Source: a virus
Lineage: Duplodnaviria > Heunggongvirae > Uroviricota > Caudoviricetes
Length of the DNA stretch: 48,101 nucleotides
Reading direction: 5' to 3' (one strand)
IMG/VR virus record: IMGVR_UViG_2939521961_000008
The notes beneath the pieces were generated by a model that searched no databases, was not told where the DNA came from, and was given only the letters and a program-made list of their open reading frames with translations. How positions within the stretch are numbered: position 1 is the first letter of the stretch; each line of letters starts with the position of its first letter. Made by a program: the position numbers and the translations under genes. Below, one piece after another: positions 1,754 through 37,599 of this stretch.

Positions 1754-1928
1754 TATTATTTCCAGTGGTTCGTTTATTTCATCGTTCGAGTGCTTCTTTT
1801 TCACTTCCACCATAACCGGTTCGGGATTCGCATCCGTTACACTTCGCTCGGTAATATCCTGAAATGGCTTTCACCGTTACTGATGGACAACCACAAAATG
1901 GACATGGTTTAACATTGTCATATCTCAT
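1734..1928 (-). CDS. ralR: restriction alleviation protein RalR/Lar, 64 aa (alternative start at 1940)
   Basis: Hand translation of minus strand gives MRYDNVKPCPFCGCPSVTVKAISGYYRAKCNGCESRTGYGGSEKEALERWNKRTTGNNNGGVHV with CxxC...CxxC; below the 60-aa cutoff of the ORF track. Confidence 0.75.
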
Positions 1929-1983: not shown

Positions 1984-2793
1984 TTATTCCTCTGAATTAT
2001 CGATTACACTGTATTCCCCGGTTAATACAGAGGAATCTGCAGGATCGATTGTCAGTGGTTCCTTTTCATCCATTGATACTGCACGCTGGATCTCAATTGA
2101 TACGGGCAGATATTTGAACAGGCGACGAATAGCCGTTTTCTTTGCCATTTCTTCCCAGTGAGTTACCCACGGCCCGTTATTACCAGCTTTACTCTGGCTG
2201 CGCACCAGCTCAATCTGTTTGCGCGTCATAACTTCAAACTGAGTACCTCCGTCTTTCAGTCTTGCGACAGCATAGACGTGGGTAACAGGGGCATCTTCGT
2301 TTTCTCCTGGGCGGTGTATTAACTTTTCATCAAGGCCAAATTCGAAATTAAACTCGTCACCTTCACGGACAACACGGGCTGACAGGCTGGCGATTTGACC
2401 TGAACGGCGAGCCAGATCAATCATGCCGCGATAGCCAATGATTAGCTGAACGTTTTTTTTACCGCTCTTTTCGTTTTTATTACCAAAAGGCAGTAAATAT
2501 GCATGACCGAGGGCGCTACCGGGCTCAAGTCCGAGCTGTGAACACTGTACGATTGCACTGACAAAACTCATAGTGTCACAGTTTCCTAACGCCGGAACTT
2601 TACGAATTTCTGTGGTGGCGATACGGATCATACGTTCAGCCGTCATATGGCGTGGAAGAGCTGCTGCCAGTTGCTCTTTCATTGATGGCTGGTTAATAAA
2701 ACTAATCACGTCGTTATTTTTAATTGCTGCTGGTGCACGGTTTCCCTGAGTTTTTTGCAGATCGGCTTTTGCGATTGGTGGTTGCTTAGTCAT
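1984..2793 (-). CDS. recT: RecT single-strand annealing recombinase, 269 aa
   Basis: Translation from [25 protein letters not shown]... matches Rac RecT over its length; ORF track extends to 2850 but the Met at 2793 gives the canonical 269 aa. Confidence 0.95.
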
Positions 2794-5386
2794 TTGCATA
2801 TTCCTTAGCCCAGCGGGGCAGTGATAACGTCTTAATAGCTGGCCATTCATCGGTATTGAGGCAGTCAGCCAGGGTTCGCAGATTGCGGTGATATTCCAGC
2901 TGACCTGCCAGTTTTGCTTCTTCGCCCATCATGAAAATTTCAACCGGATAACGTCCGCATTCAATAGTTGTGCTGGCAACCAGAAAAACGAAAGTTGGCT
3001 GCACTCCAAACTGTGCTTCATAACCGTCACTGTAGAATGCATCCTGAACGTGATAGCGGTAGTCGTAATAAGCGGTTTTGAATCGTTGAATATCCGCCGT
3101 AGTTTTCACGTCCATGATCCAGTGAAATTCAGGGATAATTTTGTCCGGACGGCACCGACACAAAATTGCTGTTTCAGGATCTTCCCAGTAAATTGATGAT
3201 TCAGCGTGTCCGGCGCTTTCAACAAGCCATTGCCCCAGCGGCAAAGCCATAACGCTCTGATACATGAGTTCAATTTTCCGGCCTTCTTCGGCAGTGATAA
3301 CCGTTTTTCCTGTGCTTGCGCATTCCCTCAGAAACGCTTTCTCTTCTTCTTTTCCGGAGTTTGTCCGGCGGTTAAATTCAGGTGCTACGATAAAGCGGTT
3401 ACTGAATTCTTCCGGCTCAAGTACCCGGCAGTGGAAAGCGGTTCCTAAATCGAGCGTTTTTGTCTTTGTGGTGTCCACGGGGGCATTTTTACGCCACAAA
3501 TACAGTGCCGGAGTATCAGCAATGTCATCGAGCTGAGACTTACTGACACCGGGACCCGCGTGGTAATTCTCATTCGAAATTCCGTAATAAATACCTGGCT
3601 CTATGTCTTCTACGATTACGGGATCTGCGACTTCGCCAGTTTCATCACTGCAATCGCGATGCGGATCGCTGCCAGCATTCTCATTGTGCGGATGTTCAGC
3701 GCCTTCCATTTCCTCCGGATCATTTTCCTTAGCTTCAACCTGACTCTCTTCATCGAATGTTTCCTGGTATGTTGCGTCGCCCATCACCGCACCACAGTCA
3801 GGGCAGTTATCCCCGCCAGTCTGGCCGCAGGCATTGCAGGCTATTTCCGGTTCCTGTTGCACTATTGGCTCAGGTTGATTCATATCCGGGCTGGTTTTTT
3901 CCGTTTCTGGCTGGTTCTGGTACACACAATCGCGAGTCTGGATCCCCTTTACCCATTTCGGATCGTTCGGGTCGCTAATTCTGTCAACAAATTCACCACG
4001 TGATGCAGCAAGCAATTTATCGGCATCGACAGGATTTTTTGATGGAATGTTTTTCCGGGCTTCATGGAGTTCTGCCCGCAGTTCCTGATATTTCGCATCA
4101 ACAGAATTTACCTGTGACTGAGCATCCAGCGGCTGCGTGTCCTGATGATGTTCAGTTGCGTCCGGTTCCATTGTTTCAGCCTCTCCCTGTTCAACTGCCG
4201 TTGTTCCAGATGGTTGCGGTTTTTCTTCATAATCCTGTTTTCCTTCTTCTGTTACTCGCTGCGGCATCGGGGCAGAGGAGCGACCGCAGGCAATATCCAC
4301 GATTTCCGGATCAGGGTTGGCATGATCGGTTTCAGTCAGTACTTTGTTCAGATATTCAGTGACGTGCGCGGGGATGACCTCGATCCCAATTGGTGCTTCT
4401 TTTACGGACGCAACCACGATGGCGCGGGAATAATCCAGCCCGCCAGGCATGGTGATGAATTTGTCGCGGAAAACAGAAAAGGGCGGTTTATTTTCAGCGA
4501 TAATTTCCTCAATGCGTTTAGCGTGTGCCGGATGAAGGTTATAGATGTCCAGATCCATTGAACGGGCCAGTACGCCAGTGGCTACGTCCCGCGCCAGTGA
4601 CGTCAGATCGTGTACGAAACCTTCGCCGCGATCGGTGAGGTTTCCGCCGCCAGCATTAGCACCGGAAGCCGTGCGAGTGATGTGTGAAACACGATTACCC
4701 TTCATCCACTCTTTTGTCAGCAGTCCTCGATCGGTGTAGTCAGCGTTCAGGTATGCTTCGAAAAAAGCAGTTATCAGTCCCAGGTTTGAATTACCAGGAT
4801 TAGGGAAAACTTTGTCAGTGTCACGAACCAGTTTGTGGAGTTCGCGAATTTCCAGCGGGTCGAGCAGGCTGGTTTTGTGGGAAACAGCCAGGGCAGTAAC
4901 AGCCGGTAGTTCTTCAGCCCGAGCAATGTGTAATGCCTGGAGTCCGTCGCGTGAAACGTGCGTTACCGGTTTTTCGCTGCCGTGTTGAGCAAGCCAACGA
5001 ATGGGCAGTTCCTGGCCAGAAATTGGGAGTAGCATATTCTCCTCAATCTCAGTCATGTCTTCGCCGTTGACGTTGGTATTGCCTTGATAGTGAGCGTTGT
5101 CTGGTGCTGCTCCCGGTTTTAGTTCCCATGTCATGGAGTCTTTGCTGAGTTGATAGCGTTCACTCCAGGTAAAATCGATCTCACCTTCAGCGGGCAGGTC
5201 ATTAACGACAGGAAAATTCGTGGCAACAGCTTTAAAATAGCTGCTCAGTTTTTTACCTGACTTAACGATCAGGTAGTCCAGAGTGGCACAGGTCGATTCA
5301 AAATCGTTGCTTGCCCACAGGACGACGTCAGGTTCACCGGATGATTTTTTCGCTTTCCGTAACAGGAAGAGTGGTTTTGTGCTCAT
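2786..5386 (-). CDS. recE: RecE exonuclease VIII, full-length 866 aa
   Basis: 866-aa [32 protein letters not shown]... with C-terminal nuclease region; 8-bp overlap with recT as in Rac. Confidence 0.95.
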
Positions 5387-5837: not shown

Positions 5838-6008
5838 TTAAAGTTCATGTGCCATCTGGTCTTTTTCGGCACAAGCTTCACTGCAATATTTTCTCGGTTC
5901 GTCTTTTGATAAAATCCCGTGCATGAAGTGAAGCATTCTTTCAATAGCTTTGCTTTCTTCAACGTCTTTTTTGCAAAGGTGGTAAGCACATTTTATTTTC
6001 TTAGTCAT
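5838..6008 (-). CDS. ydaE: YdaE-like small Cys-rich protein, 56 aa
   Basis: Hand translation [56 protein letters not shown]; ATGA start overlap with kilR stop; under 60 aa so absent from the ORF track. Confidence 0.7.
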   Translation of the reverse strand: MTKKIKCAYHLCKKDVEESKAIERMLHFMHGILSKDEPRKYCSEACAEKDQMAHEL

Positions 6009-6229
6009 CACCATGACTCCGCCTTTACAGGTAAACCATCACGACCGAGGAAGACTTTAATCATGCGGTCAGTAATGCATGTTTTTGTGGTCAGGTTACG
6101 AATATATAGTTTTCGCTTTTTAATATTGTTTGCCGAGGCAATATATGTCCGGCCTTCATGAAGAACATAATCGCCAGGAGTCACACACTGACGTGGTATT
6201 TCATCAGTTCCGAAGTGATGTGCAATCAT
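6008..6229 (-). CDS. kilR: KilR cell-division inhibitor, 73 aa
   Basis: [32 protein letters not shown]... from internal Met of ORF 6008..6241; first gene of the leftward operon. Confidence 0.85.
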
Positions 6230-8776: not shown

Positions 8777-8818
8777 TGAACCGCCCCGGGTTTCCTGGAG
8801 AGTATTTTATCTGTGAAC

Positions 8819-9709
8819 TCAGGCTGCCAGATCATTATTTCCGATGGAAGCATAATAAGCTTTTTCTGCTTCTGCCGGAGGAATATGGCCCAGCCTTTCC
8901 AGCAATCGTCGATTGTTATACCAGTCCACCCACGTTAGTGTGGCCAGTTCCACTTCTGTCCGGTTTTTCCAGCTATTACGGTGTATTACCTCCGCTTTGT
9001 AAAGACCATTGATGCTCTCAGCCATCGCGTTGTCATACGAGTCGCCAGTACTCCCTGTTGATGCCAGTAATCCGGCTTCCTTAAGCCGCTGCGTGTAGGC
9101 CAGCGATACATACTGAGAACCTTTATCACTGTGATGGATTGTGCCGGACGGCCGACGGGCCCACAACGCCTGCTCCAGTGCATCCAGCACGAATGTTGTT
9201 TCCATGGATGATGAGACCTGCCATCCCACGATGTATCCGGCGAACACATCAATGATGAACGCCACATAAACGAAGCCCTGCCATGTGCTTACCCAGGTAA
9301 AATCAGCCACCCACAACTGGTCTGGACGTTCTGCCACGAACTGACGGTTTACGCGGTCGCATGCGGCAACGGCTTTCCGGCTGACGGTAGTGCGGACCTT
9401 TTTACCCCGGAGAACACCGGCAAGTCCCATAACTGCCATGAGACGTGCCACAGTGCATCTGGCCACTCTGATACCTTCCCGTAACAACTGACGCCAGACT
9501 TTACGCACACCGTATACCTGGTGATTTTCATCGTATACGCGCTGTATCTCTTTCTTCAGCCAGTCATCGTGCTGCGCACGGGCACTGCGTTTATCCGGAT
9601 GATGTCGCTGTTGCTGACAATGGTAATACGTTGACGGGGCAATATGCAGTTCGCTGCATACCGGTCCGACCCCGTACTGCTCACGCAGCTTATCCAGCAG
9701 TGGCATCAT
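8819..9709 (-). CDS. IS3-family transposase OrfB (DDE integrase domain), 296 aa
   Basis: DDE-type catalytic core (…WVADFTW…, …HSDKGSQY…, …DNAMAES…); overlaps orfA end. Confidence 0.9.
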
Positions 9710-10032
9710 TTTTTCCAGAGGCGGTCGAACTCCGCCTTCGCAAAATAAGCGGAAGCCTGGCGAAGGATATCGTTACTGCGGCGCAGTTCACGATTTTCAC
9801 GTTCCAGCTCTTTCAGACGCTGACGTTCAGCACTGGTGAGCCCACCATCACCGCCCCCGGTATCCCGCTCATGCTGGCGAACCCAGACACGCAGAGTCTC
9901 CGGCGTACAGCCAATCTTTGGGGCAATGGAACAAATTGCCGCCCACTGTGAGTCATATTCATCCTGACTTTCCAGAACCATACGAATCGCCCGCTGACGG
10001 ACTTCGGGGGAAAAACGAGTATTTTTAGTCAT
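9706..10032 (-). CDS. IS3-family transposase OrfA (HTH), 108 aa
   Basis: [22 protein letters not shown]... with leucine-zipper-like C-terminus; ends in GGAAAAAATGA where orfB begins (frameshift window). Confidence 0.9.
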
Positions 10033-14303: not shown

Positions 14304-15173
14304 ATGACCACTATTACCAAAGAACGTATTGAATTGTTCATTAAAAATCCGCTTGAAAACGGGCTTACCCGTGGTGAACAAATGGAACTGGCACGGATTG
14401 CGCTGGCATCGCTGGAAGCAGAGCCGGTGGCAAAGATTATAGCTCATTACCCATTAGGGGTTGACGTAGGCAAACAAAAATTTGTACAGGCCATTAGAGA
14501 GCTTCCTGACTTTGGCGGATATCTATTTGCCGCCCCTCCAGCGCCGATAGTGCCGGAAGAAATGTATTGGCAGGATGCGCCAGTTGAAGGCAGCAGCAAA
14601 GCGGCTGCATACGCTACAGGCTGGAACGATTGCCGCGAAGCCATGTTTCAGTCCGGAAACTTTCGGGAAAATAAAGATTCGTCAACCAATAATTTTCGGA
14701 AAATCCCGGAAGCGTCAACCAGCTCTCCGGTAACTCCGGCTCTTCTGCCTGGTGGTTTCACCATTGAGGAGGCGAAGGAATTACATGAAGACCTGGCACG
14801 CAGCCACATAAGCAAGGCCTTAAGTGGCGAAAAGATGAAAAAGAAAGATCGCGATGCTGATTTGCGCTGGATTCATGGCGTTATAGTTCAGGCAGCGTGG
14901 TTTGTAAAAGCATCACTGGAGCAGAATGCACTATCGGGCAACTATCCGGTAACTCCGGATAGTTGGATAAGCTGTAGTGAGCGAATGCCGGATACCAAAA
15001 CAGCCGTTCTTGTTGCCAGGGATTTTGGCAGGAAAGGTGACTGGCGAATGAAATGGGCGACTTACATCCCGGGGCATCCTGACGCTAATGATGGGTGGAT
15101 AATACCTGGTGCGTCGTGGATACCATCACACTGGATGCCTCTACCAGAACCGCCGCAGGAGGTGCGCCAATGA
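14304..15173 (+). CDS. hypothetical phage protein with C-terminal DUF551-like domain
   Basis: Strong RBS TAAGGAG; C-terminal segment SWISCSERMPDTKTAVLVARDFGRKGDWRMKW...GWIIPGASWIPSHWMPLPEPP. Confidence 0.6.
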   Translation: MTTITKERIELFIKNPLENGLTRGEQMELARIALASLEAEPVAKIIAHYPLGVDVGKQKFVQAIRELPDFGGYLFAAPPAPIVPEEMYWQDAPVEGSSKAAAYATGWNDCREAMFQSGNFRENKDSSTNNFRKIPEASTSSPVTPALLPGGFTIEEAKELHEDLARSHISKALSGEKMKKKDRDADLRWIHGVIVQAAWFVKASLEQNALSGNYPVTPDSWISCSERMPDTKTAVLVARDFGRKGDWRMKWATYIPGHPDANDGWIIPGASWIPSHWMPLPEPPQEVRQ

Positions 15174-15639
15174 ACTGGCCTGAAGCATTTGCAATTACAG
15201 GCGTTGCTATGGCTATCGCTTTTTTAGTATATGTTATTTGTCGGTGAGGGTAAAAACGTTCGCCGGGATTAACACCAAAGGAGGGAATATGTCGGATGAT
15301 ATATCACTGGCAATGGAAGGTGCGCTGGCTGTTGTTGCTGTTGTGGGCGTTTACTGCCTGGTTGTGTTTTTGATGGATCGACTAGGGAACTGAATTCATT
15401 ACGATATGGGAATTCCCATATCGGGTAAAAACGGTTTGCGGGAAAAGGAGAGTTAAGTAGAATTGCTGCGGGTGCTTGAGGCTATCTGTCTCAGGCATGA
15501 ACACCAAAAGGCAGATAGAGAAAAGCCCCAGTTAACATTACGCGTCCTGCAAGACGCTTAACATTAATCTGAGGCCCAATCTATGTCTCACAAATGTAGG
15601 TTAGCCTCTTACGTGCCGAAAGGCAAGGAGAAGCAGGCT

Positions 15640-15795
15640 ATGAAGCAGCAAAAGGCGATGTTAATCGCCCTGATCGTCATCTGTTTAACCGTCATAGTGA
15701 CGGCACTGGTAACGAGGAAAGACCTCTGCGAGGTACGAATCCGAACCGGCCAGACGGAGGTCGCTGTCTTCACAGCTTACGAACCTGAGGAGTAA
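15640..15795 (+). CDS. hokD: Hok/Gef-family type I toxin (HokD/RelF-like), 51 aa; overlapping mok-like frame begins at 15583
   Basis: MKQQKAMLIALIVICLTVIVTALVTRKDLCEVRIRTGQTEVAVFTAYEPEE: single TM helix plus conserved Hok periplasmic tail; longer overlapping ORF in the same frame. Confidence 0.8.
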   Translation: MKQQKAMLIALIVICLTVIVTALVTRKDLCEVRIRTGQTEVAVFTAYEPEE

Positions 15796-15863
15796 GAGAC
15801 CCGGCGGGGGAGAAATCCCTCGCCACCGCTGATGTGTCAGGCATCCTCAACGCACCCGCACTT

Positions 15864-15890
15864 AACCCGCTTCGGCGGGTTTTGTTTTTT
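15864..15890 (+). terminator. rho-independent terminator after hok
   Basis: AACCCGC-TTCG-GCGGGTT hairpin followed by TTTGTTTTTT. Confidence 0.6.
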
Positions 15891-25186: not shown

Positions 25187-28867
<3,681 letters not shown>

Positions 28868-28887
<20 letters not shown>

Positions 28888-34599: not shown

Positions 34600-35039
34600 A
34601 TTTTGCCCTCAGACTGGCGCGAGAGATGGGGAGGCCTGACTGGCGCGCCATGCTTGCCGGGATGACATCCACCGAATATGCCGACTGGCGACATTTTTAC
34701 CGCACGCATTATTTTCAGGATACCCAACTGGATATGCATTTTTCCGGGCTGATGTACGCTGTACTCAGCCTGTTTTTTTGCGATCCGGATATGCATCCCT
34801 CTGATTTCAGTCTGCTTGTCCCCCGGCATGAGGAAGAGCAGGTGGAGAGGCTGGATGAGGACAAAATGCTGATGCAGAAAGCGGCAGGACTTGCCGGAGG
34901 CGTCCGGTTCGGTGGGGACGGAGGGGGCGATATTTTATCGTCTGCGGATGTGGCGGATGTCATGGTGGATGATGCCGCATTAATGATGGCTTCAGCGGGG
35001 ATTCCGGGAGGTGTGAGATATGTCCCAGCCGGTTGGTGA
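34581..35039 (+). CDS. T: T frame, expressed only as G-T fusion by -1 programmed frameshift at GGGAAAG (34575-34581)
   Basis: -1 frame open from the slippery site to 35039; lambda G-T arrangement. Confidence 0.8.
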   Translation, partial: VFDGELNFALRLAREMGRPDWRAMLAGMTSTEYADWRHFYRTHYFQDTQLDMHFSGLMYAVLSLFFCDPDMHPSDFSLLVPRHEEEQVERLDEDKMLMQKAAGLAGGVRFGGDGGGDILSSADVADVMVDDAALMMASAGIPGGVRYVPAGW

Positions 35040-37599
35040 TCTTATTATTGACCTGAGTCTGGATGCGGTCCGTTTCGATGAGCAGATGAGCCGGGTAAGG
35101 CGTCATTTTTCAGGACTGGATACTGACGCCAGAAAAACCGCCACTGCTGTTGAACAGGGCCTGAGCCGTCAGGCGCTGGCTGCGCAAAAAGCCGGGATTT
35201 CCGTCGGACAGTATAAAGCGGCCATGCGCACCCTGCCCGCACAGTTTACGGATATCGCCACGCAGCTTGCCGGTGGTCAGAATCCCTGGCTGATCCTGCT
35301 GCAACAGGGCGGTCAGGTGAAGGACTCCTTCGGCGGGATGATCCCCATGCTCAGGGGGCTTGCCGGTGCGATCACCCTGCCGATGGTCGGGGTCACCTCG
35401 CTGGCGGTGGCGACAGGTGCGCTGGCGTACGCCTGGTACCAGGGGGATTCCACGCTTTCAGCGTTTAATAAAACCCTGGTTCTTTCCGGTAATCAGTCCG
35501 GACTGACTGCCGATCGTATGCTGACTCTCTCAAGAGCCGGGCAGGCAGCAGGGCTGACGTTTAACCAGGCGAGAGAGTCACTGGCAGCCCTGGTGAATGC
35601 CGGTGTGCGTGGTGGTGAACAGTTTGATGCCATCAACCAGAGTGTCGCGCGTTTTGCGTCTGCATCCGGTGTGGAGGTGGATAAAGTCGCTGAAGCCTTC
35701 GGGAAGCTGACCACTGACCCGACGTCGGGACTGATGGCGATGGCGCGCCAGTTCCGTAACGTGACGGCAGAGCAGATTGCGTATGTTGCACAGCTGCAGC
35801 GTTCCGGAGACGAGGCCGGGGCATTGCAGGCGGCGAACGATATCGCCACGAAAGGCTTTGATGAGCAGACCCGTCGCCTGAAAGAAAACATGGGAACACT
35901 GGAGACCTGGGCGGATAAAACAGGGAAGGCATTCAAATCGATGTGGGATGCCATTCTGGATATCGGTCGTCCGGAATCCTCAGCGGATATGCTCGCCAGT
36001 GCGCAGAAGGCATTTGATGAGGCGGATAAAAAATGGCAGTGGTACCAGAGTCGGAGCCAGCGCCGCGGTAAAACCTCCTCTTTCCGGGCCAACCTTCAGG
36101 GCGCATGGAATGACCGGGAAAATGCCCGTCTGGGGCTGGCAGCGGCCACGCTGCAGTCGGATATGGAAAAAGCCGGTGAACTGGCCGCCAGGGACCGGGC
36201 CGAACGGGACGCATCACAGCTGAAGTATACCGGAGAGGCGCAGAAGGCGTATGAGCGTCTGCTGACGCCGCTGGAGAAATATACCGCCCGTCAGGAAGAA
36301 CTGAATAAGGCCCTGAAAGACGGGAAAATCCTGCAGGCGGATTACAACACGCTGATGGCGGCGGCGAAAAAGGATTATGAATCGACGCTGAAAAAGCCGA
36401 AGTCGTCAGGAGTCAAAGTGTCAGCCGGTGAGCGTCAGGAAGACCAGGCGCATGCTGCCCTGCTGGCGCTTGAAACCGAGCTCCGGACGCTGGAAAAACA
36501 CAGCGGTGCGAATGGGAAAATCAGCCAGCAGCGTCGCGATTTATGGAAAGCGGAAAATCAGTATGCGGTCCTGAAAGAGGCAGCCACGAAACGGCAGTTA
36601 TCTGAGCAGGAAAAATCCCTGCTGACCCATGAGAAAGAGACGCTGGAGTACAAACGCCAGCTGGCTGAGCTGGGAGACAAAGTTGAACACCAGAAACGGC
36701 TGAATGAGCTGGCACAGCAGGCTGCGCGGTTTGAGCAGCAGCAGGGCGCGAAGCAGGCGGCAATCAGTGCCCAGGCGCGGGGCCTCACCGACCGTCAGGT
36801 GCAGCGGGAGTCGGAAGAGCAGCGCCTTCGTGACGTGTACGGTGATAATCCGGATGCGCTGGCGAAGGCCACATCTGCACTGAAGAACACCTGGTCTGCG
36901 GAGGAGCAGCTTCGTGGAAGCTGGATGGCCGGTCTGAAGTCCGGCTGGGGCGAGTGGGCAGAAAGTGCGACGGACAGTTTTTCGCAGGTTAAAAGCGTGG
37001 CCACGCAGACCTTTGACGGTATTGCACAGAATATGGCAGCGATGCTGACCGGCAGCGAACAGAGCTGGCGTGGTTTCACCCGTTCTGTGCTCTCCATGCT
37101 GACAGAGATTTTTCTGAAGCAGGCCATGGTGGGGATTGTCGGGAGTATTGGCAGCGCCATGGGTGGTGCTTTCGGTGGTGGGGCGTCTGCCTCCACGGGG
37201 ACGGCCATTCAGGCTGCGGCGGCGAACTTCCATTTCGCGACCGGAGGATTTACGGGAACCGGTGGCAAATACGAACCTGCCGGTATTGTCCACCGCGGGG
37301 AGTTTGTCTTCACGAAGGAGGCAACCAGCCGGATTGGCGTCGGCAACCTGTATCGTCTGATGCGCGGGTATGCGGAAGGTGGTTATGTGGGCGGTGCCGG
37401 AAGTCCGGCGCAGATGCGGCGGGCGGAAGGCATTAGTTTTAATCAGAACAATCACGTGGTGATTCAGAACGACGGCACCAACGGACAGGCGGGGCCGCAG
37501 CTGATGAAGGCGGTGTATGACATGGCCCGCAAGGGGGCGCAGGATGAGATTCAGGCGCAGATGCGTGATGGCGGCGTCTTTTCCGGAGGCAGGCGATGA
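35020..37599 (+). CDS. H: tail tape measure protein H, 859 aa
   Basis: Long helical, Ala/Gln-rich protein in lambda H position. Confidence 0.95.
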   Translation: MSQPVGDLIIDLSLDAVRFDEQMSRVRRHFSGLDTDARKTATAVEQGLSRQALAAQKAGISVGQYKAAMRTLPAQFTDIATQLAGGQNPWLILLQQGGQVKDSFGGMIPMLRGLAGAITLPMVGVTSLAVATGALAYAWYQGDSTLSAFNKTLVLSGNQSGLTADRMLTLSRAGQAAGLTFNQARESLAALVNAGVRGGEQFDAINQSVARFASASGVEVDKVAEAFGKLTTDPTSGLMAMARQFRNVTAEQIAYVAQLQRSGDEAGALQAANDIATKGFDEQTRRLKENMGTLETWADKTGKAFKSMWDAILDIGRPESSADMLASAQKAFDEADKKWQWYQSRSQRRGKTSSFRANLQGAWNDRENARLGLAAATLQSDMEKAGELAARDRAERDASQLKYTGEAQKAYERLLTPLEKYTARQEELNKALKDGKILQADYNTLMAAAKKDYESTLKKPKSSGVKVSAGERQEDQAHAALLALETELRTLEKHSGANGKISQQRRDLWKAENQYAVLKEAATKRQLSEQEKSLLTHEKETLEYKRQLAELGDKVEHQKRLNELAQQAARFEQQQGAKQAAISAQARGLTDRQVQRESEEQRLRDVYGDNPDALAKATSALKNTWSAEEQLRGSWMAGLKSGWGEWAESATDSFSQVKSVATQTFDGIAQNMAAMLTGSEQSWRGFTRSVLSMLTEIFLKQAMVGIVGSIGSAMGGAFGGGASASTGTAIQAAAANFHFATGGFTGTGGKYEPAGIVHRGEFVFTKEATSRIGVGNLYRLMRGYAEGGYVGGAGSPAQMRRAEGISFNQNNHVVIQNDGTNGQAGPQLMKAVYDMARKGAQDEIQAQMRDGGVFSGGRR

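What the first reader, a model, noticed from the sequence alone, without database searches (positions are those of the whole stretch)
15170..15423. Two unannotated hydrophobic micro-ORFs and a 22-bp perfect palindrome just upstream of hok
15170-15247 (MNWPEAFAITGVAMAIAFLVYVICR, ATGA-coupled to the DUF551 gene) and 15289-15393 (MSDDISLAMEGALAVVAVVGVYCLVVFLMDRLGN, preceded by AAAGGAGGG) both encode single-TM peptides below the ORF-track cutoff. They are followed by the perfect palindrome CGATATGGGAATTCCCATATCG (15402-15423). Small membrane peptides next to a type I toxin could be additional toxins, entry-exclusion factors or membrane-depolarising abortive-infection peptides.
Basis: seen in the sequence. 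Interest (0 to 1): 0.45.

Follow-up and report, generated by a model that had tools for sequence, protein, structure and literature searches.

The report
Two membrane micro-genes plus orphan KilA-N palindrome
The 254 bases upstream of the prophage hok toxin gene hold two very small membrane-protein genes that look real, plus a 22-base palindrome that appears to be the stranded remnant of a conserved DNA palindrome normally buried inside phage KilA-N genes, and none of the three shows evidence of being an extra toxin.

Summary
All three features are at the stated coordinates. The window is a defective Rac-like prophage, 100% identical to E. coli O26 RM10386.

- **ORF1 (15170-15247).** It is a 2-codon-truncated copy of a largely unannotated 27-aa family (MxWPEAF…YSICRWG). 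The family occurs in 99 phage records. Its start always overlaps the stop of the upstream gene (ATGA), behind at least four unrelated upstream genes, with a Shine-Dalgarno (SD) ribosome-binding motif. pN/pS is about 0.4, and about half of copies have no hok nearby.
- **ORF2 (15289-15393).** RefSeq already annotates it as hypothetical protein WP_001278454.1. All 86 sampled copies are intact (pN/pS 0.25-0.45). A diverged 29-aa form also sits directly upstream of hok promoters, so ORF2 travels with lambdoid hok cassettes.
- **Palindrome (15402-15423).** It lies at -68 to -47 from the hok mRNA start, but 51 of 78 sampled hok loci lack it. The same 22-mer sits inside KilA-N genes from many phyla. 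There a 20-bp palindrome with a GGAATTCC core shows strong compensatory covariation, including at synonymous sites. In E. coli 95NR1 an intact KilA-N gene sits between ORF1 and hok in the matching orientation.

The window copy is most likely an orphaned remnant at a mosaic joint. Neither micro-ORF matches any toxin or defence family, and their functions are untested.

The parts
14304..15173 (+). 289-aa ORF with a C-terminal DUF551 domain. Its TGA stop overlaps the ORF1 start (ATGA).
   Evidence: Pfam PF04448, E = 6.7e-19, on residues 220-285. PGAP splits this ORF into two partial pseudogenes plus a 62-aa DUF551 CDS at 14985-15173, so it is a mosaic.
15157..15162 (+). AGGAGG Shine-Dalgarno motif for ORF1, embedded in the last codons of the upstream gene, 7 nt before the ATG.
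   Evidence: Read. Of 37 distinct upstream sequences in the ORF1 family, 35 carry at least 4 nt of AGGAGG at -18 to -4, across unrelated upstream genes.
15170..15247 (+). ORF1: a 25-aa truncated allele (W26 to stop) of a conserved 27-aa single-pass membrane microprotein, M[TNS]WPEAF..VG.A.AVA..VYSICRWG.
   Evidence: tblastn finds it in 99 phage records. In the IMG/VR sample, 137 of 150 copies are exactly 27 codons. pN/pS is 0.38-0.43, against 0.9-1.8 in the other two frames.
15248..15268 (+). Direct repeat D1, copy 1 (GGGTAAAAACGTTCGCCGGGA): the normal sequence that follows the ORF1 stop.
   Evidence: It is homologous to the ORF1/hok junction of 933W and pPE4.
15277..15285 (+). AAAGGAGGG Shine-Dalgarno motif for ORF2.
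   Evidence: It is conserved in all type A alleles in the alignment.
15289..15393 (+). ORF2 (type A): a 34-aa single-pass membrane peptide, annotated in RefSeq as hypothetical protein WP_001278454.1, belonging to the left arm of lambdoid hok cassettes.
   Evidence: All 68 type A copies are intact, with pN/pS 0.25. The 29-aa type B homologue lies directly upstream of hok promoters. The family is narrow: 15 hits among 1.84 billion representatives.
15387..15426 (.). Block shared by hok loci that have unrelated upstream DNA. Positions 15391-15426 are 89% identical to the KilA-N gene of E. coli 95NR1; on the minus strand they read DMGIPIS**IQ.
15402..15423 (.). Perfect 22-bp palindrome with a GGAATTCC core: an orphan copy of the palindrome found inside KilA-N genes. 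It lies at -68 to -47 from the hok mRNA 5' end.
   Evidence: As RNA it folds into a 9-bp stem with an AAUU loop, -14.5 kcal/mol, z = -3.9.
15423..15443 (+). Direct repeat D1, copy 2 (GGGTAAAAACGGTTTGCGGGA): remnant of the ORF1-end/hok-promoter junction. It runs into the hok -35 region.
   Evidence: In 933W and pPE4 the ORF1 stop runs straight into this sequence.
15435..15463 (+). Inferred hok promoter: -35 TTTGCG at 15435-15440, a 17-nt spacer, and -10 TAGAAT at 15458-15463.
   Evidence: This is an inference from the position of the Rfam-defined leader start and from conservation of GTTAAGTAGAATTGC across hok loci. The promoter scan did not call it.
15470..15645 (+). hok mRNA leader (mok/sok region).
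   Evidence: Rfam RF01794, 120 bits, E = 2e-28, full-length model.
15640..15795 (+). Hok toxin CDS, annotated hokD by PGAP.

Best explanation
The interval is a mosaic joint in the nin-type region, between the replication genes and the Q antiterminator, of a defective Rac-like prophage. It is built from three independent parts.

**1. ORF1.** It belongs to a conserved 27-aa bitopic membrane microprotein family.
- It is the last cistron of early 'ea/DUF551-type' gene blocks.
- It is probably made by termination-reinitiation coupling: the ATG overlaps the upstream TGA, and an SD motif sits in the last codons of the upstream gene.
- Its presence in a strictly lytic phage argues that it acts during lytic growth.
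- The window allele lacks the conserved C-terminal Trp-Gly and may be impaired.

**2. ORF2.** It is a 34-aa membrane peptide under purifying selection that is inherited with lambdoid hok/sok cassettes.
- In this lineage a 175-bp piece (linker + ORF2 + palindrome) sits between the ORF1 stop and the hok promoter.
- That piece is bounded by a ~21-bp direct repeat of the original ORF1/hok junction.
- Both peptides would be translated from the rightward early transcript, not as independently regulated toxins.

**3. The palindrome.** It is an orphan copy of a DNA-level palindrome (GGAATTCC core with symmetric arms) that is conserved inside KilA-N genes.
- A related phage has an intact, oppositely oriented KilA-N gene between ORF1 and hok.
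- The gene appears to have been lost on both sides of the palindrome, leaving about 36 bp.
- Here it is most likely a recombination remnant carried along with the hok cassette, not a hok operator or terminator.

**Shown.** The anatomy, conservation, selection signatures, synteny and covariation.

**Inferred.** Translation, membrane insertion, the order of rearrangements and the lack of a present-day function for the palindrome.
For: **ORF1**
- tblastn finds full-length 63-70% identical copies in 99 phage records from Escherichia, Shigella, Salmonella and Klebsiella phages and Stx phages.
- It is unannotated in 933W, VT1-Sakai, Av-05 and pPE4, where it starts at the stop of four different upstream proteins.
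- In an IMG/VR sample of 150 copies there are 39 distinct peptides, and 137 copies are exactly 27 codons.
- Over codons 8-27, pN/pS is 0.43, against 0.9-1.8 in the other frames.
- SD motifs are present in 35 of 37 distinct upstream sequences.
- Downstream context is hok at +123 in 42 copies, ORF2 + palindrome + hok in 34 copies, and no hok in 65 copies, where a terminator often follows.

**ORF2**
- At least 638 E. coli genomes carry the block that includes it.
- All 68 type A and all 18 type B copies are intact, with third-position-biased variation. pN/pS is 0.25, 0.43 and 0.45 for type A, type B and A versus B, and the other two frames are closed by stops.
- Type B abuts the hok -35 in a different upstream context and in four isolated phages.
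- About 32 of 78 sampled hok loci have an ORF2-type gene.

**Insertion and direct repeat:**

**Palindrome**
- The exact 22-mer occurs in KilA-N (PF04383) genes.
- In 70 KilA-N sequences sampled without reference to the palindrome, the best 20-mer about 60 nt upstream of the QGTWVHP motif has 10/10 complementary pairs in 14 sequences, 9/10 in 14 and 8/10 in 14. Control windows never exceed 8.
- 77% of cells are paired against 56% in shuffles (0 of 500 shuffles reach the observed value). The covariation score is 0.459 against 0.162. All 10 pairs show double changes, and sliding the partner columns collapses the signal.
- Synonymous sites are constrained: GGA is used 79% of the time against a 21% background, ATT 89% against 31%, and Pro is only CCC or CCG.

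**Synteny:** 95NR1 has DUF551, a hypothetical gene, ORF1, a terminator, KilA-N on the opposite strand, then hok. Window positions 15391-15426 align to its palindrome region.
Against: **No experiments.** No expression or localisation data exist for either ORF, and no paper mentions these sequences.

**ORF1**
- The family sample was retrieved with a pattern that fixes codons 1-7.
- pN/pS of about 0.4 is moderate.
- One locus has a nonsense codon at position 3, and the window allele is truncated.

**ORF2**
- Diversity is shallow: E. coli only, at least 82% identity within type A.
- Some hok loci keep only its last 6 codons, so it is dispensable for hok.
- The collection method could not detect frameshifted copies.

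**Palindrome**
- It is better conserved than its immediate flanks in hok loci.
- It is kept behind three different upstream sequences.
- Free-standing copies occur elsewhere, next to terminators.
- Both putative deletion end-points hug it.

These four points fit a site that is still used, or a recombination hot spot, as well as they fit a passive scar.
Confidence: 0.55

Rival explanations
1. The orphan palindrome is still a working DNA site. It would be the recognition sequence of KilA-N-type DNA-binding proteins, or of another dimeric protein, made by co-resident or incoming phages. Bound at about -57, it would modulate the hok promoter or block read-through from the early operon into hok.
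For: - Selection on the palindrome inside KilA-N genes acts at the nucleotide level and includes the central GGAATTCC, which would form the loop of a hairpin.
- G.U pairs make up only about 10% of non-Watson-Crick cells. This count is derived and fits duplex DNA better than RNA.
- Free-standing copies are kept in three hok contexts and in a stop-palindrome-terminator module of other phages.
- In hok loci the palindrome varies less than its flanks.
- The E. coli KilA-N gene with the identical 22-mer is present in 137 of 5426 genomes.
Against: - No binding data exist, and the DNA specificity of phage KilA-N domains is unknown to me.
- 51 of 78 hok loci lack the palindrome.
- 6 of 26 hok-linked copies carry a 1-nt deletion in one arm.
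- The window has no KilA-N gene.
- Many different arm sequences occur in KilA-N genes. A single conserved specificity does not explain this easily.
Confidence: 0.22
2. One reading: ORF1 and/or ORF2 are additional membrane toxins, superinfection-exclusion factors or abortive-infection peptides that work with or alongside Hok.
For: - Both are short, single hydrophobic helices of the size of type I toxins.
- The ORF2 family is found almost only next to hok.
- hokW-sokW of Sp5 has been reported to aid phage release (PMC8621323), so a membrane-active partner is conceivable.
Against: - Neither matches any toxin or defence model.
- Neither has an antisense RNA or a structured leader; the only Rfam hit is the hok leader.
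- ORF1 is coupled to upstream early genes with a strong SD motif, which is unlike tightly silenced toxins. It also occurs in the virulent phage Av-05 and lacks hok in 65 of 150 cases.
- ORF2 is missing or truncated at many hok loci.
- Natural ORF1-ORF2 fusions exist.
Confidence: 0.13
3. The palindrome acts as an RNA hairpin in the early read-through transcript. It would be a 3' stabiliser of the ORF2 message, or a pause or processing site that insulates hok.
For: - It forms a stable hairpin of -14.5 kcal/mol, z = -3.9.
- It begins 8 nt after the ORF2 stop.
- In other phages a copy sits 7-13 nt after a stop codon and just before an intrinsic terminator.
Against: - No U-tract follows it, and the terminator scan does not call it.
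- Wobble pairs are not enriched, and the loop bases are constrained in KilA-N genes.
- In the paa context it lies downstream of a terminator.
Confidence: 0.07
4. The micro-ORFs are not genes. Their conservation would reflect recent common descent or other constraints on the DNA.
For: - ORFs of this size abound by chance.
- ORF2 type A alleles are at least 82% identical.
- ORF1 is disrupted or truncated in some loci.
Against: - ORF1 keeps exactly 27 codons at about 65% amino-acid identity, behind unrelated upstream genes, in 99 phage records.
- Substitutions in both ORFs are biased towards synonymous changes, while the other frames are closed by stops or show pN/pS of about 1 or more.
- ORF2 types A and B differ at 63% of synonymous sites but stay open, each with its own SD motif and start codon.
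Confidence: 0.05

Closest known systems
hokW/sokW of phage 933W / Sp5 and other lambdoid hok-sok loci (type I toxin-antitoxin)
   Same: The window carries the same cassette: a leader matching Rfam RF01794 and a Hok CDS. In 933W the ORF1 homologue ends 44 nt before the hokW transcript start region, and the junction sequence is the same.
   Different: The published locus description covers hok, mok and sok only. ORF1, ORF2 and the palindrome are not part of it. Neither micro-ORF matches the Hok/Gef family.
Small bacterial inner-membrane proteins of under 50 aa that are missed by annotation (e.g. KdpF, AcrZ, MgtS), named from my own knowledge and from review PMC12648545 listed
   Same: Size, a single hydrophobic helix, frequent absence from annotation, and location at the end of an operon with coupled translation.
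   Different: There is no sequence relationship. The KdpF model scores 14.7 bits against a cut-off of 26.85. These genes are phage-borne, and no partner protein is known.
Morons and mosaic module junctions of lambdoid phages (established concept; my own knowledge)
   Same: A short self-contained insert (ORF2 + palindrome) lies between the end of one gene block and the next promoter, is flanked by a short direct repeat, and neighbours differ between relatives.
   Different: ORF2 has no promoter or terminator of its own that the scans could find. The joint also contains a fragment of a gene from the opposite strand.
KilA-N domain (Pfam PF04383), the DNA-binding domain of phage and large-virus proteins that is related to fungal APSES factors
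   Same: The window's 22-mer is identical to the stretch encoding DMGIPIS in E. coli prophage KilA-N genes, and it lies in the same place and orientation relative to ORF1 and hok.
   Different: The window has no KilA-N ORF. I found no description of a conserved, covarying palindrome inside KilA-N genes in the searchable literature or in Rfam.
Intrinsic (Rho-independent) terminators
   Same: A G+C-containing perfect hairpin right after a stop codon.
   Different: No U-tract follows it, and the terminator scan does not call it. The real hok terminator is at 15864-15881.

Membership tests
Hok/Gef type I toxins (Pfam PF01848; NCBIfam NF007279) | The peptide matches the Hok/Gef profile. | tested here: not met
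   ORF1 and ORF2 give no Hok/Gef hit in Pfam or NCBIfam. The neighbouring Hok does: NF007279, E = 5.7e-13, 48.5 bits, which is below that model's curated 73-bit cut-off.
Hok/Gef type I toxins | A long structured leader with an overlapping mok frame and an antisense Sok RNA. | tested here: not met
   Rfam at E <= 1 over 14800-16300 hits only 15470-15645, the hok leader. Nothing lies over 15170-15423.
Other type I toxins / small toxic membrane peptides (Ldr, Ibs, TisB, ShoB, DinQ, Zor …) | Sequence family match, and an own promoter with a cis- or trans-encoded antisense RNA. | tested here: not met
   No NCBIfam or Pfam family reaches its cut-off. ORF1 is ATGA-coupled to the upstream gene. No + strand promoter was predicted in the interval. 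Toxicity itself was not testable.
Known anti-phage defence proteins (PADLOC-DB) | Match to a defence-system protein model. | tested here: not met
   The only hit is a chance-level Cmr5 match, E = 0.04.
ORF1 microprotein family (defined here: M-x-WPEAF … Y-S-I-C-R-W-G, 27 aa) | Length of 27 codons, with the N-terminal WPEAF and C-terminal CRWG motifs. | tested here: inconclusive
   The window copy has WPEAF and …VICR but stops at codon 26, so it is 25 aa. 6 of 150 sampled copies share this truncation.
ORF1 microprotein family | Start codon overlapping the stop of the upstream gene, with an SD motif inside that gene. | tested here: met
   ATGA at 15170-15173 and AGGAGG at 15157-15162. The same arrangement holds family-wide.
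PHROG phrog_38566 (unknown function) | Significant profile match. | tested here: inconclusive
   E = 0.005, 17.7 bits, over residues 7-25 only.
ORF2 peptide family (defined here: …ALA..AV…YCL.V.LM[DE][RH]L[GS][ND]) | The conserved core, and a position directly upstream of a lambdoid hok promoter. | tested here: met
   The window ORF2 is the type A representative, and hok follows. Types A and B share 13 of 24 core residues.
KilA-N intragenic palindrome (defined here) | A 20-22 bp inverted repeat with a GGAATTCC core. | tested here: met
   15402-15423 is identical to the E. coli KilA-N version.
KilA-N intragenic palindrome | Location inside a KilA-N ORF, about 60 nt upstream of the QGTWVHP codons. 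| tested here: not met
   The window has no KilA-N gene. tblastn similarity is limited to DMGIPIS**IQ. It is therefore filed as an orphan copy, not as a member in situ.
KilA-N intragenic palindrome | Same position and orientation as a KilA-N gene in a related phage. | tested here: met
   In 95NR1 the order is ORF1 homologue, terminator, KilA-N on the opposite strand, then hok. Window 15391-15426 aligns at 89% identity.
Intrinsic terminator | A G+C-rich hairpin followed by a U-tract. | tested here: not met
   The hairpin is present, but it is followed by GGGUAAAAACGG and was not called by the scan.
Operator / activator site of the hok promoter | Present at hok promoters generally, and bound by a regulator. 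| tested here: inconclusive
   The site is present, exact or variant, in 27 of 78 sampled hok loci and absent from 51. Binding is not testable with these tools.

The most novel reading that the evidence does not exclude
The 22-bp palindrome is one free-standing copy of a previously undescribed cis-element. That element is a GGAATTCC-centred DNA palindrome maintained by compensatory changes inside KilA-N genes from many bacterial phyla and their phages, even at the cost of correlated amino-acid changes and in two different reading frames. If it is the recognition site of the KilA-N domain, used for auto-regulation or as a recombination or homing target, then orphan copies such as the one at -57 of this hok promoter would wire other phage modules to KilA-N proteins supplied in trans, or would mark hot spots where phage modules are exchanged.
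Probability: 0.3. Interest if true: 0.8.

Novelty: new member of a known kind. Interest (0 to 1): 0.58.

Why it matters
- **Annotation.** A 27-aa gene present in about a hundred sequenced phages, including 933W, VT1-Sakai and BP-4795, is missing from nearly all annotations. Adding it and the ORF2 family would correct the gene maps of Shiga-toxin phages and prophages.
- **hok biology.** Lambdoid hok cassettes often come with a conserved companion membrane peptide. hokW-sokW has been reported to influence phage release (PMC8621323), so the companion is an obvious candidate to test with it.
- **A possible new cis-element.** Tracing the palindrome led to an unexpected regularity. KilA-N genes across phyla carry a DNA palindrome that is preserved by covariation at synonymous and non-synonymous sites. 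This is a rare case of a nucleic-acid element shaping a protein sequence. It gives a direct handle on what KilA-N domains bind, and perhaps on how phage mosaic joints form.

Tried and rejected
- **Word-indexed protein search with the bare peptides.** It was repeated with the longer in-frame window ORFs.
- **tblastn of ORF2 type A against phages and plasmids.** It found nothing. I do not read this as absence, because the low-complexity filter can mask this Ala/Val-rich peptide, and the type B query did find four phages.
- **Literature.** Searches for the accession numbers, peptide strings and the palindrome found nothing. The hokW-sokW paper does not discuss the upstream region.
- **Palindrome as a terminator.** Rejected, because there is no U-tract and the scan does not call it.
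- **Palindrome as a general hok operator.** Rejected as a general feature, because 51 of 78 hok loci lack it.
- **ORF2 as the antisense of a decayed KilA-N C-terminal region.** Rejected, because tblastn and blastn show no similarity beyond 11 codons.
- **ORF2 as a tandem duplicate of ORF1.** Both are hydrophobic, but I found no alignment beyond composition. The direct repeat D1 lies after ORF1 and after the palindrome, not at equivalent ORF ends.
- **ORF1 as a frameshift-added C-terminal anchor of the upstream protein.** Judged unlikely. No slippery site is shared by the four unrelated upstream genes, whereas the ATG and SD motif are always kept.
- **The KilA-N palindrome as a by-product of a conserved peptide.** Rejected for three reasons. 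The Gly, Ile and Pro wobble positions are constrained and covary. The palindrome persists where the peptide differs (VVQICTT, AVLISTA, DAANAAS). In Saprospiraceae it is read in another frame.
Full report
**Setting.** The window is 100% identical to a prophage of E. coli O26 str. RM10386.
- It is a Rac-like lambdoid element carrying intR, xisR, ralR, recET, kilR and ydaSTUV.
- It looks defective: an IS3 sits in ydaU, and the portal and tape-measure genes are frameshifted.
- The finding lies in the nin-type region between the replication genes and the Q-like antiterminator. All genes there are on the + strand.

**Observation.**
- The palindrome is far beyond chance. About 0.01 are expected per 48 kb (my arithmetic), none appear in 100 shuffles, and it is unique in the window at up to 3 mismatches.
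- Small ORFs are not beyond chance on their own: 68 ORFs of at least 20 aa overlap the surrounding 4 kb.
- The hok leader begins at 15470 (Rfam RF01794, 120 bits), so the palindrome spans -68 to -47.
- By alignment to other hok loci I infer a -35 (TTTGCG, 15435-15440) and a -10 (TAGAAT, 15458-15463). The generic promoter scan did not call them.

**ORF1.**
- *Length.* Among loci that share the block, most alleles read …ICRWG* at 27 aa. The window and a few others have TGG changed to TGA at codon 26, and one locus has a stop at codon 3.
- *Distribution.* tblastn with the 27-aa form finds full-length matches of 63-70% identity in 99 phage records. These include Stx phages (VT1-Sakai, BP-4795, YYZ-2008), Klebsiella, Salmonella and Shigella phages, and the virulent Vequintavirinae phage Av-05.
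- *Coupling.* In pPE4, VT1-Sakai, Av-05 and 933W the homologue is unannotated. It begins exactly at the stop codon of four different upstream proteins.
- *Sample.* An IMG/VR sample anchored only on the first seven codons gave 150 copies and 39 distinct peptides. 137 copies are exactly 27 codons, with consensus M[TNS]WPEAFTTVGIAMAVALVVYSICRWG.
- *Selection.* For codons 8-27, which the search pattern did not fix, pooled pN/pS is 0.43. The other two frames give 0.9 and 1.8, and one of them is mostly closed by stops.
- *Ribosome binding.* 35 of 37 distinct upstream sequences carry at least 4 nt of AGGAGG at -18 to -4, although they lie in unrelated coding sequences.
- *Downstream context.* hok starts at +123 in 42 copies. 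ORF2 + palindrome + hok follows in 34 copies. There is no hok in 65 copies, and a terminator hairpin often follows there.
- *Reading.* I take ORF1 to be a real terminal cistron of early gene blocks. It would be made by coupled translation and act in lytic growth. It is not tied functionally to hok.
- *Family status.* No Pfam, NCBIfam or PADLOC family reaches its cut-off, and one PHROG of unknown function matches weakly.

**ORF2.**
- *Annotation and spread.* PGAP annotates it as hypothetical protein WP_001278454.1. The exact peptide and close variants are seen on about 1000 or more contigs. The 381-bp block 15100-15480 is at least 80% covered in 638 of 5426 complete E. coli genomes.
- *Breadth.* The word-indexed search found only E. 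coli proteins of at least 82% identity. An exhaustive profile search of 1.84 billion representatives found 15 hits, including 29-30-aa relatives such as MLAALKGFVAILAVVAIYCLVVVLMDRLSD.
- *Type B.* Sampling hok loci by their leader sequence revealed a second form: GTG start with its own AGGAGG, sequence VLVLKCALAIAAVMAIYCLAVVLMDHLSD. Its stop lies 35 nt before the conserved TTGCTGCGGG of the hok promoter/leader. It has no palindrome and a quite different upstream neighbour, for example a 604-aa ORF. It is also present, unannotated, in the isolated phages Tritos, Evi, mEp460_ev081 and HannyBb, and in HannyBb hok follows it.
- *Selection.* All 68 type A and all 18 type B copies are open. Variable sites favour third positions (9/6/17 and 2/4/8 by codon position). 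pN/pS is 0.25 and 0.43 within types and 0.45 between types at pS = 0.63. The other two frames contain stops.
- *Link to hok.* Of 78 leader-sampled hok loci, 20 have type A and 12 have type B. Four more keep only the last six codons of type B, and about 18 have ORF1 running straight into the promoter. One genome has ORF1 + ORF2 followed by ibrBA-like genes instead of hok.
- *Reading.* ORF2 is a conserved companion of lambdoid hok cassettes, but hok does not need it.
- *Fusions.* A few database proteins fuse ORF1 and ORF2 into 74 aa through one extra G in the GGGGG run at the ORF1 stop. This could be sequencing error or real variation.

**How the joint was built.**
- The 21-nt direct repeat (15248-15268 and 15423-15443, 81% identical) is the sequence that in 933W and pPE4 joins the ORF1 stop to the hok promoter.
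- The 175 bp between the repeat starts (linker, ORF2, palindrome) therefore looks like an insertion into, or unequal exchange at, that junction.
- The SD motif of ORF2 (AAAGGAGGG) corresponds to AAAGGAGAG in the hok promoter spacer.

**The palindrome.**
- *Contexts of the exact 22-mer.* In IMG/VR it occurs with hok behind three unrelated upstream sequences (ORF2; the terminator of the paa adhesin gene; a third gene), and in other settings.
- *Other settings.* Most of these lie inside KilA-N genes, where it encodes DMGIPIS. Others form a non-coding module in other phage contigs: gene stop, 7-13 nt, CTACCATACAAG, palindrome, then an intrinsic terminator.
- *Taxonomic spread.* Across one genome per species, the 22-mer (centre RATY) occurs in 80 places, from Enterobacteriaceae to Nostocales, Saprospiraceae, Rhizobiales, Bacillota and Spirochaetia. 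Most are again in KilA-N genes.
- *Two reading frames.* In Saprospiraceae and Aureispira the same DNA is read in another frame (RYGNSHIA) at the homologous place in the protein.
- *Unbiased sample.* To avoid selecting on the palindrome, I sampled KilA-N genes by the QGTWVHP motif. Among 70 distinct sequences not seen before, the best 20-mer about 60 nt upstream has 10/10 complementary pairs in 14, 9/10 in 14 and 8/10 in 14. 350 control windows in the same genes never exceed 8.
- *Variety.* At least a dozen different perfect palindromes occur, for example GATATCGGAATTCCGATATC, GAAACGGGAATTCCCGTTTC, GATGCGGGAATTCCCGCATC, GTTGTGCAAATTTGCACAAC and GCGGTGCTAATTAGCACCGC. Their peptides change in step (DIGIPIS, ETGIPVS, DAGIPAS, VVQICTT, AVLISTA).
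- *Covariation.* On the alignment, 77.2% of cells pair against 56.4% in shuffles (0 of 500). The covariation score is 0.459 against 0.162 (0 of 500). All ten pairs show double changes, and sliding the partners drops pairing to 27-46%.
- *Synonymous sites.* At the centre, GGA is used in 30 of 38 cases against a 21% background, ATT in 34 of 38 against 31%, and Pro is always CCC or CCG and tracks its partner.
- *DNA or RNA.* The constraint reaches the four central bases, which would form the loop of a hairpin. G.U pairs are not enriched among mismatches (derived). Both points lean towards a duplex-DNA site rather than an RNA hairpin, but this is an inference.
- *Prior description.* I found no Rfam family and no paper describing the element.

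**Why the window copy is probably a remnant.**
- The window has no KilA-N gene. Similarity is limited to 15391-15426, which on the minus strand reads DMGIPIS**IQ against DMGIPISELIQ.
- In E. coli 95NR1 the homologous region reads DUF551, a hypothetical gene, the ORF1 homologue, a bidirectional terminator, an intact KilA-N gene on the opposite strand, then hok. This is the same place and orientation.
- Loss of the gene on both sides of the palindrome would give the window's arrangement.
- That both break-points hug the palindrome is what keeps the 'still functional or recombination hot spot' reading alive, together with three other facts. It is better conserved than its flanks in hok loci. Orphan copies recur elsewhere. 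The ORF1-ORF2-palindrome block is in at least 638 E. coli genomes, against 137 for this KilA-N gene.

**Verdict.**
- The interpretation as extra toxins or exclusion factors is not supported, although ORF2's linkage to hok is real.
- The micro-ORFs are new members of a known kind, namely unannotated small membrane proteins of phages.
- The palindrome is an orphan of an apparently undescribed intragenic DNA element of KilA-N genes. That element is the most interesting lead to follow.

Noticed in passing
KilA-N genes in loci L446-L534 (alignment A1) and L366-L445; not in the window: KilA-N (PF04383) genes from many phyla carry a 20-22 bp DNA palindrome with a GGAATTCC core about 60 nt upstream of the QGTWVHP codons. 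It is maintained by compensatory changes, including at synonymous sites, and in Saprospiraceae it is read in a different frame.
   Followed up: partly
e.g. L349 about 6050-6150, L358, L344, L313, L302 (alignment): A conserved non-coding module in other phage contigs: gene stop, 7-13 nt, CTACCATACAAG, the same palindrome (centre RATY), ACAGCCAGG, then the terminator GGCCTCTTCGGAGGCCTTTTT. Variable DNA follows, including a LexA-box-like CTGTATGAATATACAG.
   Followed up: partly
window 14304-15173: The 289-aa open frame that ends in DUF551 is annotated by PGAP as two partial pseudogenes (14304-14453, 14634-14720) plus a short DUF551 CDS (14985-15173). It is an in-frame mosaic of fragments.
   Followed up: no
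window 15243-15252 (run of G at the ORF1 stop in relatives); proteins P0038, P0045, P0046: A one-base difference in the G-run at the ORF1 stop fuses ORF1 and ORF2 into a 74-aa two-helix protein in a few database entries. Whether this is sequencing error or real variation was not resolved.
   Followed up: no
window 8818-10031 and 27286-28886, 35019-37597: An IS3-family element (with an annotated AL1L frameshift pseudoknot) interrupts the ydaU-like gene, and the portal and tape-measure genes are frameshifted. The prophage is probably defective.
   Followed up: no
window 1778-1927, 6007-6228, 46099-48099: Other small toxic or effector genes are present in the same prophage: the ralR type I toxin, kilR, and three tandem DUF1076 genes at the right end.
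   Followed up: no
window 15804-15885: A weak Rfam match to isrK (27 bits, below the gathering score of 50) lies over the region between the hok stop and its terminator (15864-15881). It is probably just the hok 3' fold-back and terminator.
   Followed up: no
L398 and L432 (uncultured Alcaligenaceae contigs), positions 23-44: The 22-mer is followed immediately by GGCGGGTTCGAGTCC, which looks like a tRNA T-arm. The palindrome may sit where a long variable arm would be.
   Followed up: no
L427 (Tolypothrix) around 4455: The palindrome is flanked by near-copies of itself (…CCCGTATCGATATGGGAATTCCCATATCGATACGGGAATTCCC…), suggesting tandem or nested palindromic repeats in some cyanobacteria.
   Followed up: no
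L232, L235, L239, L259 (hok loci): Only the last six codons of ORF2 type B (ATGGATCACCTTTCTGATTGA, MDHLSD*) remain upstream of the hok promoter. A module break-point therefore falls inside ORF2.
   Followed up: partly
L002 (E. coli JNEC-KY177) 2501-4785: ORF1 and ORF2 are followed by a palindrome with one mismatch (GGGAATTTCC), then by ibrB/ibrA-like genes on the opposite strand instead of hok.
   Followed up: no
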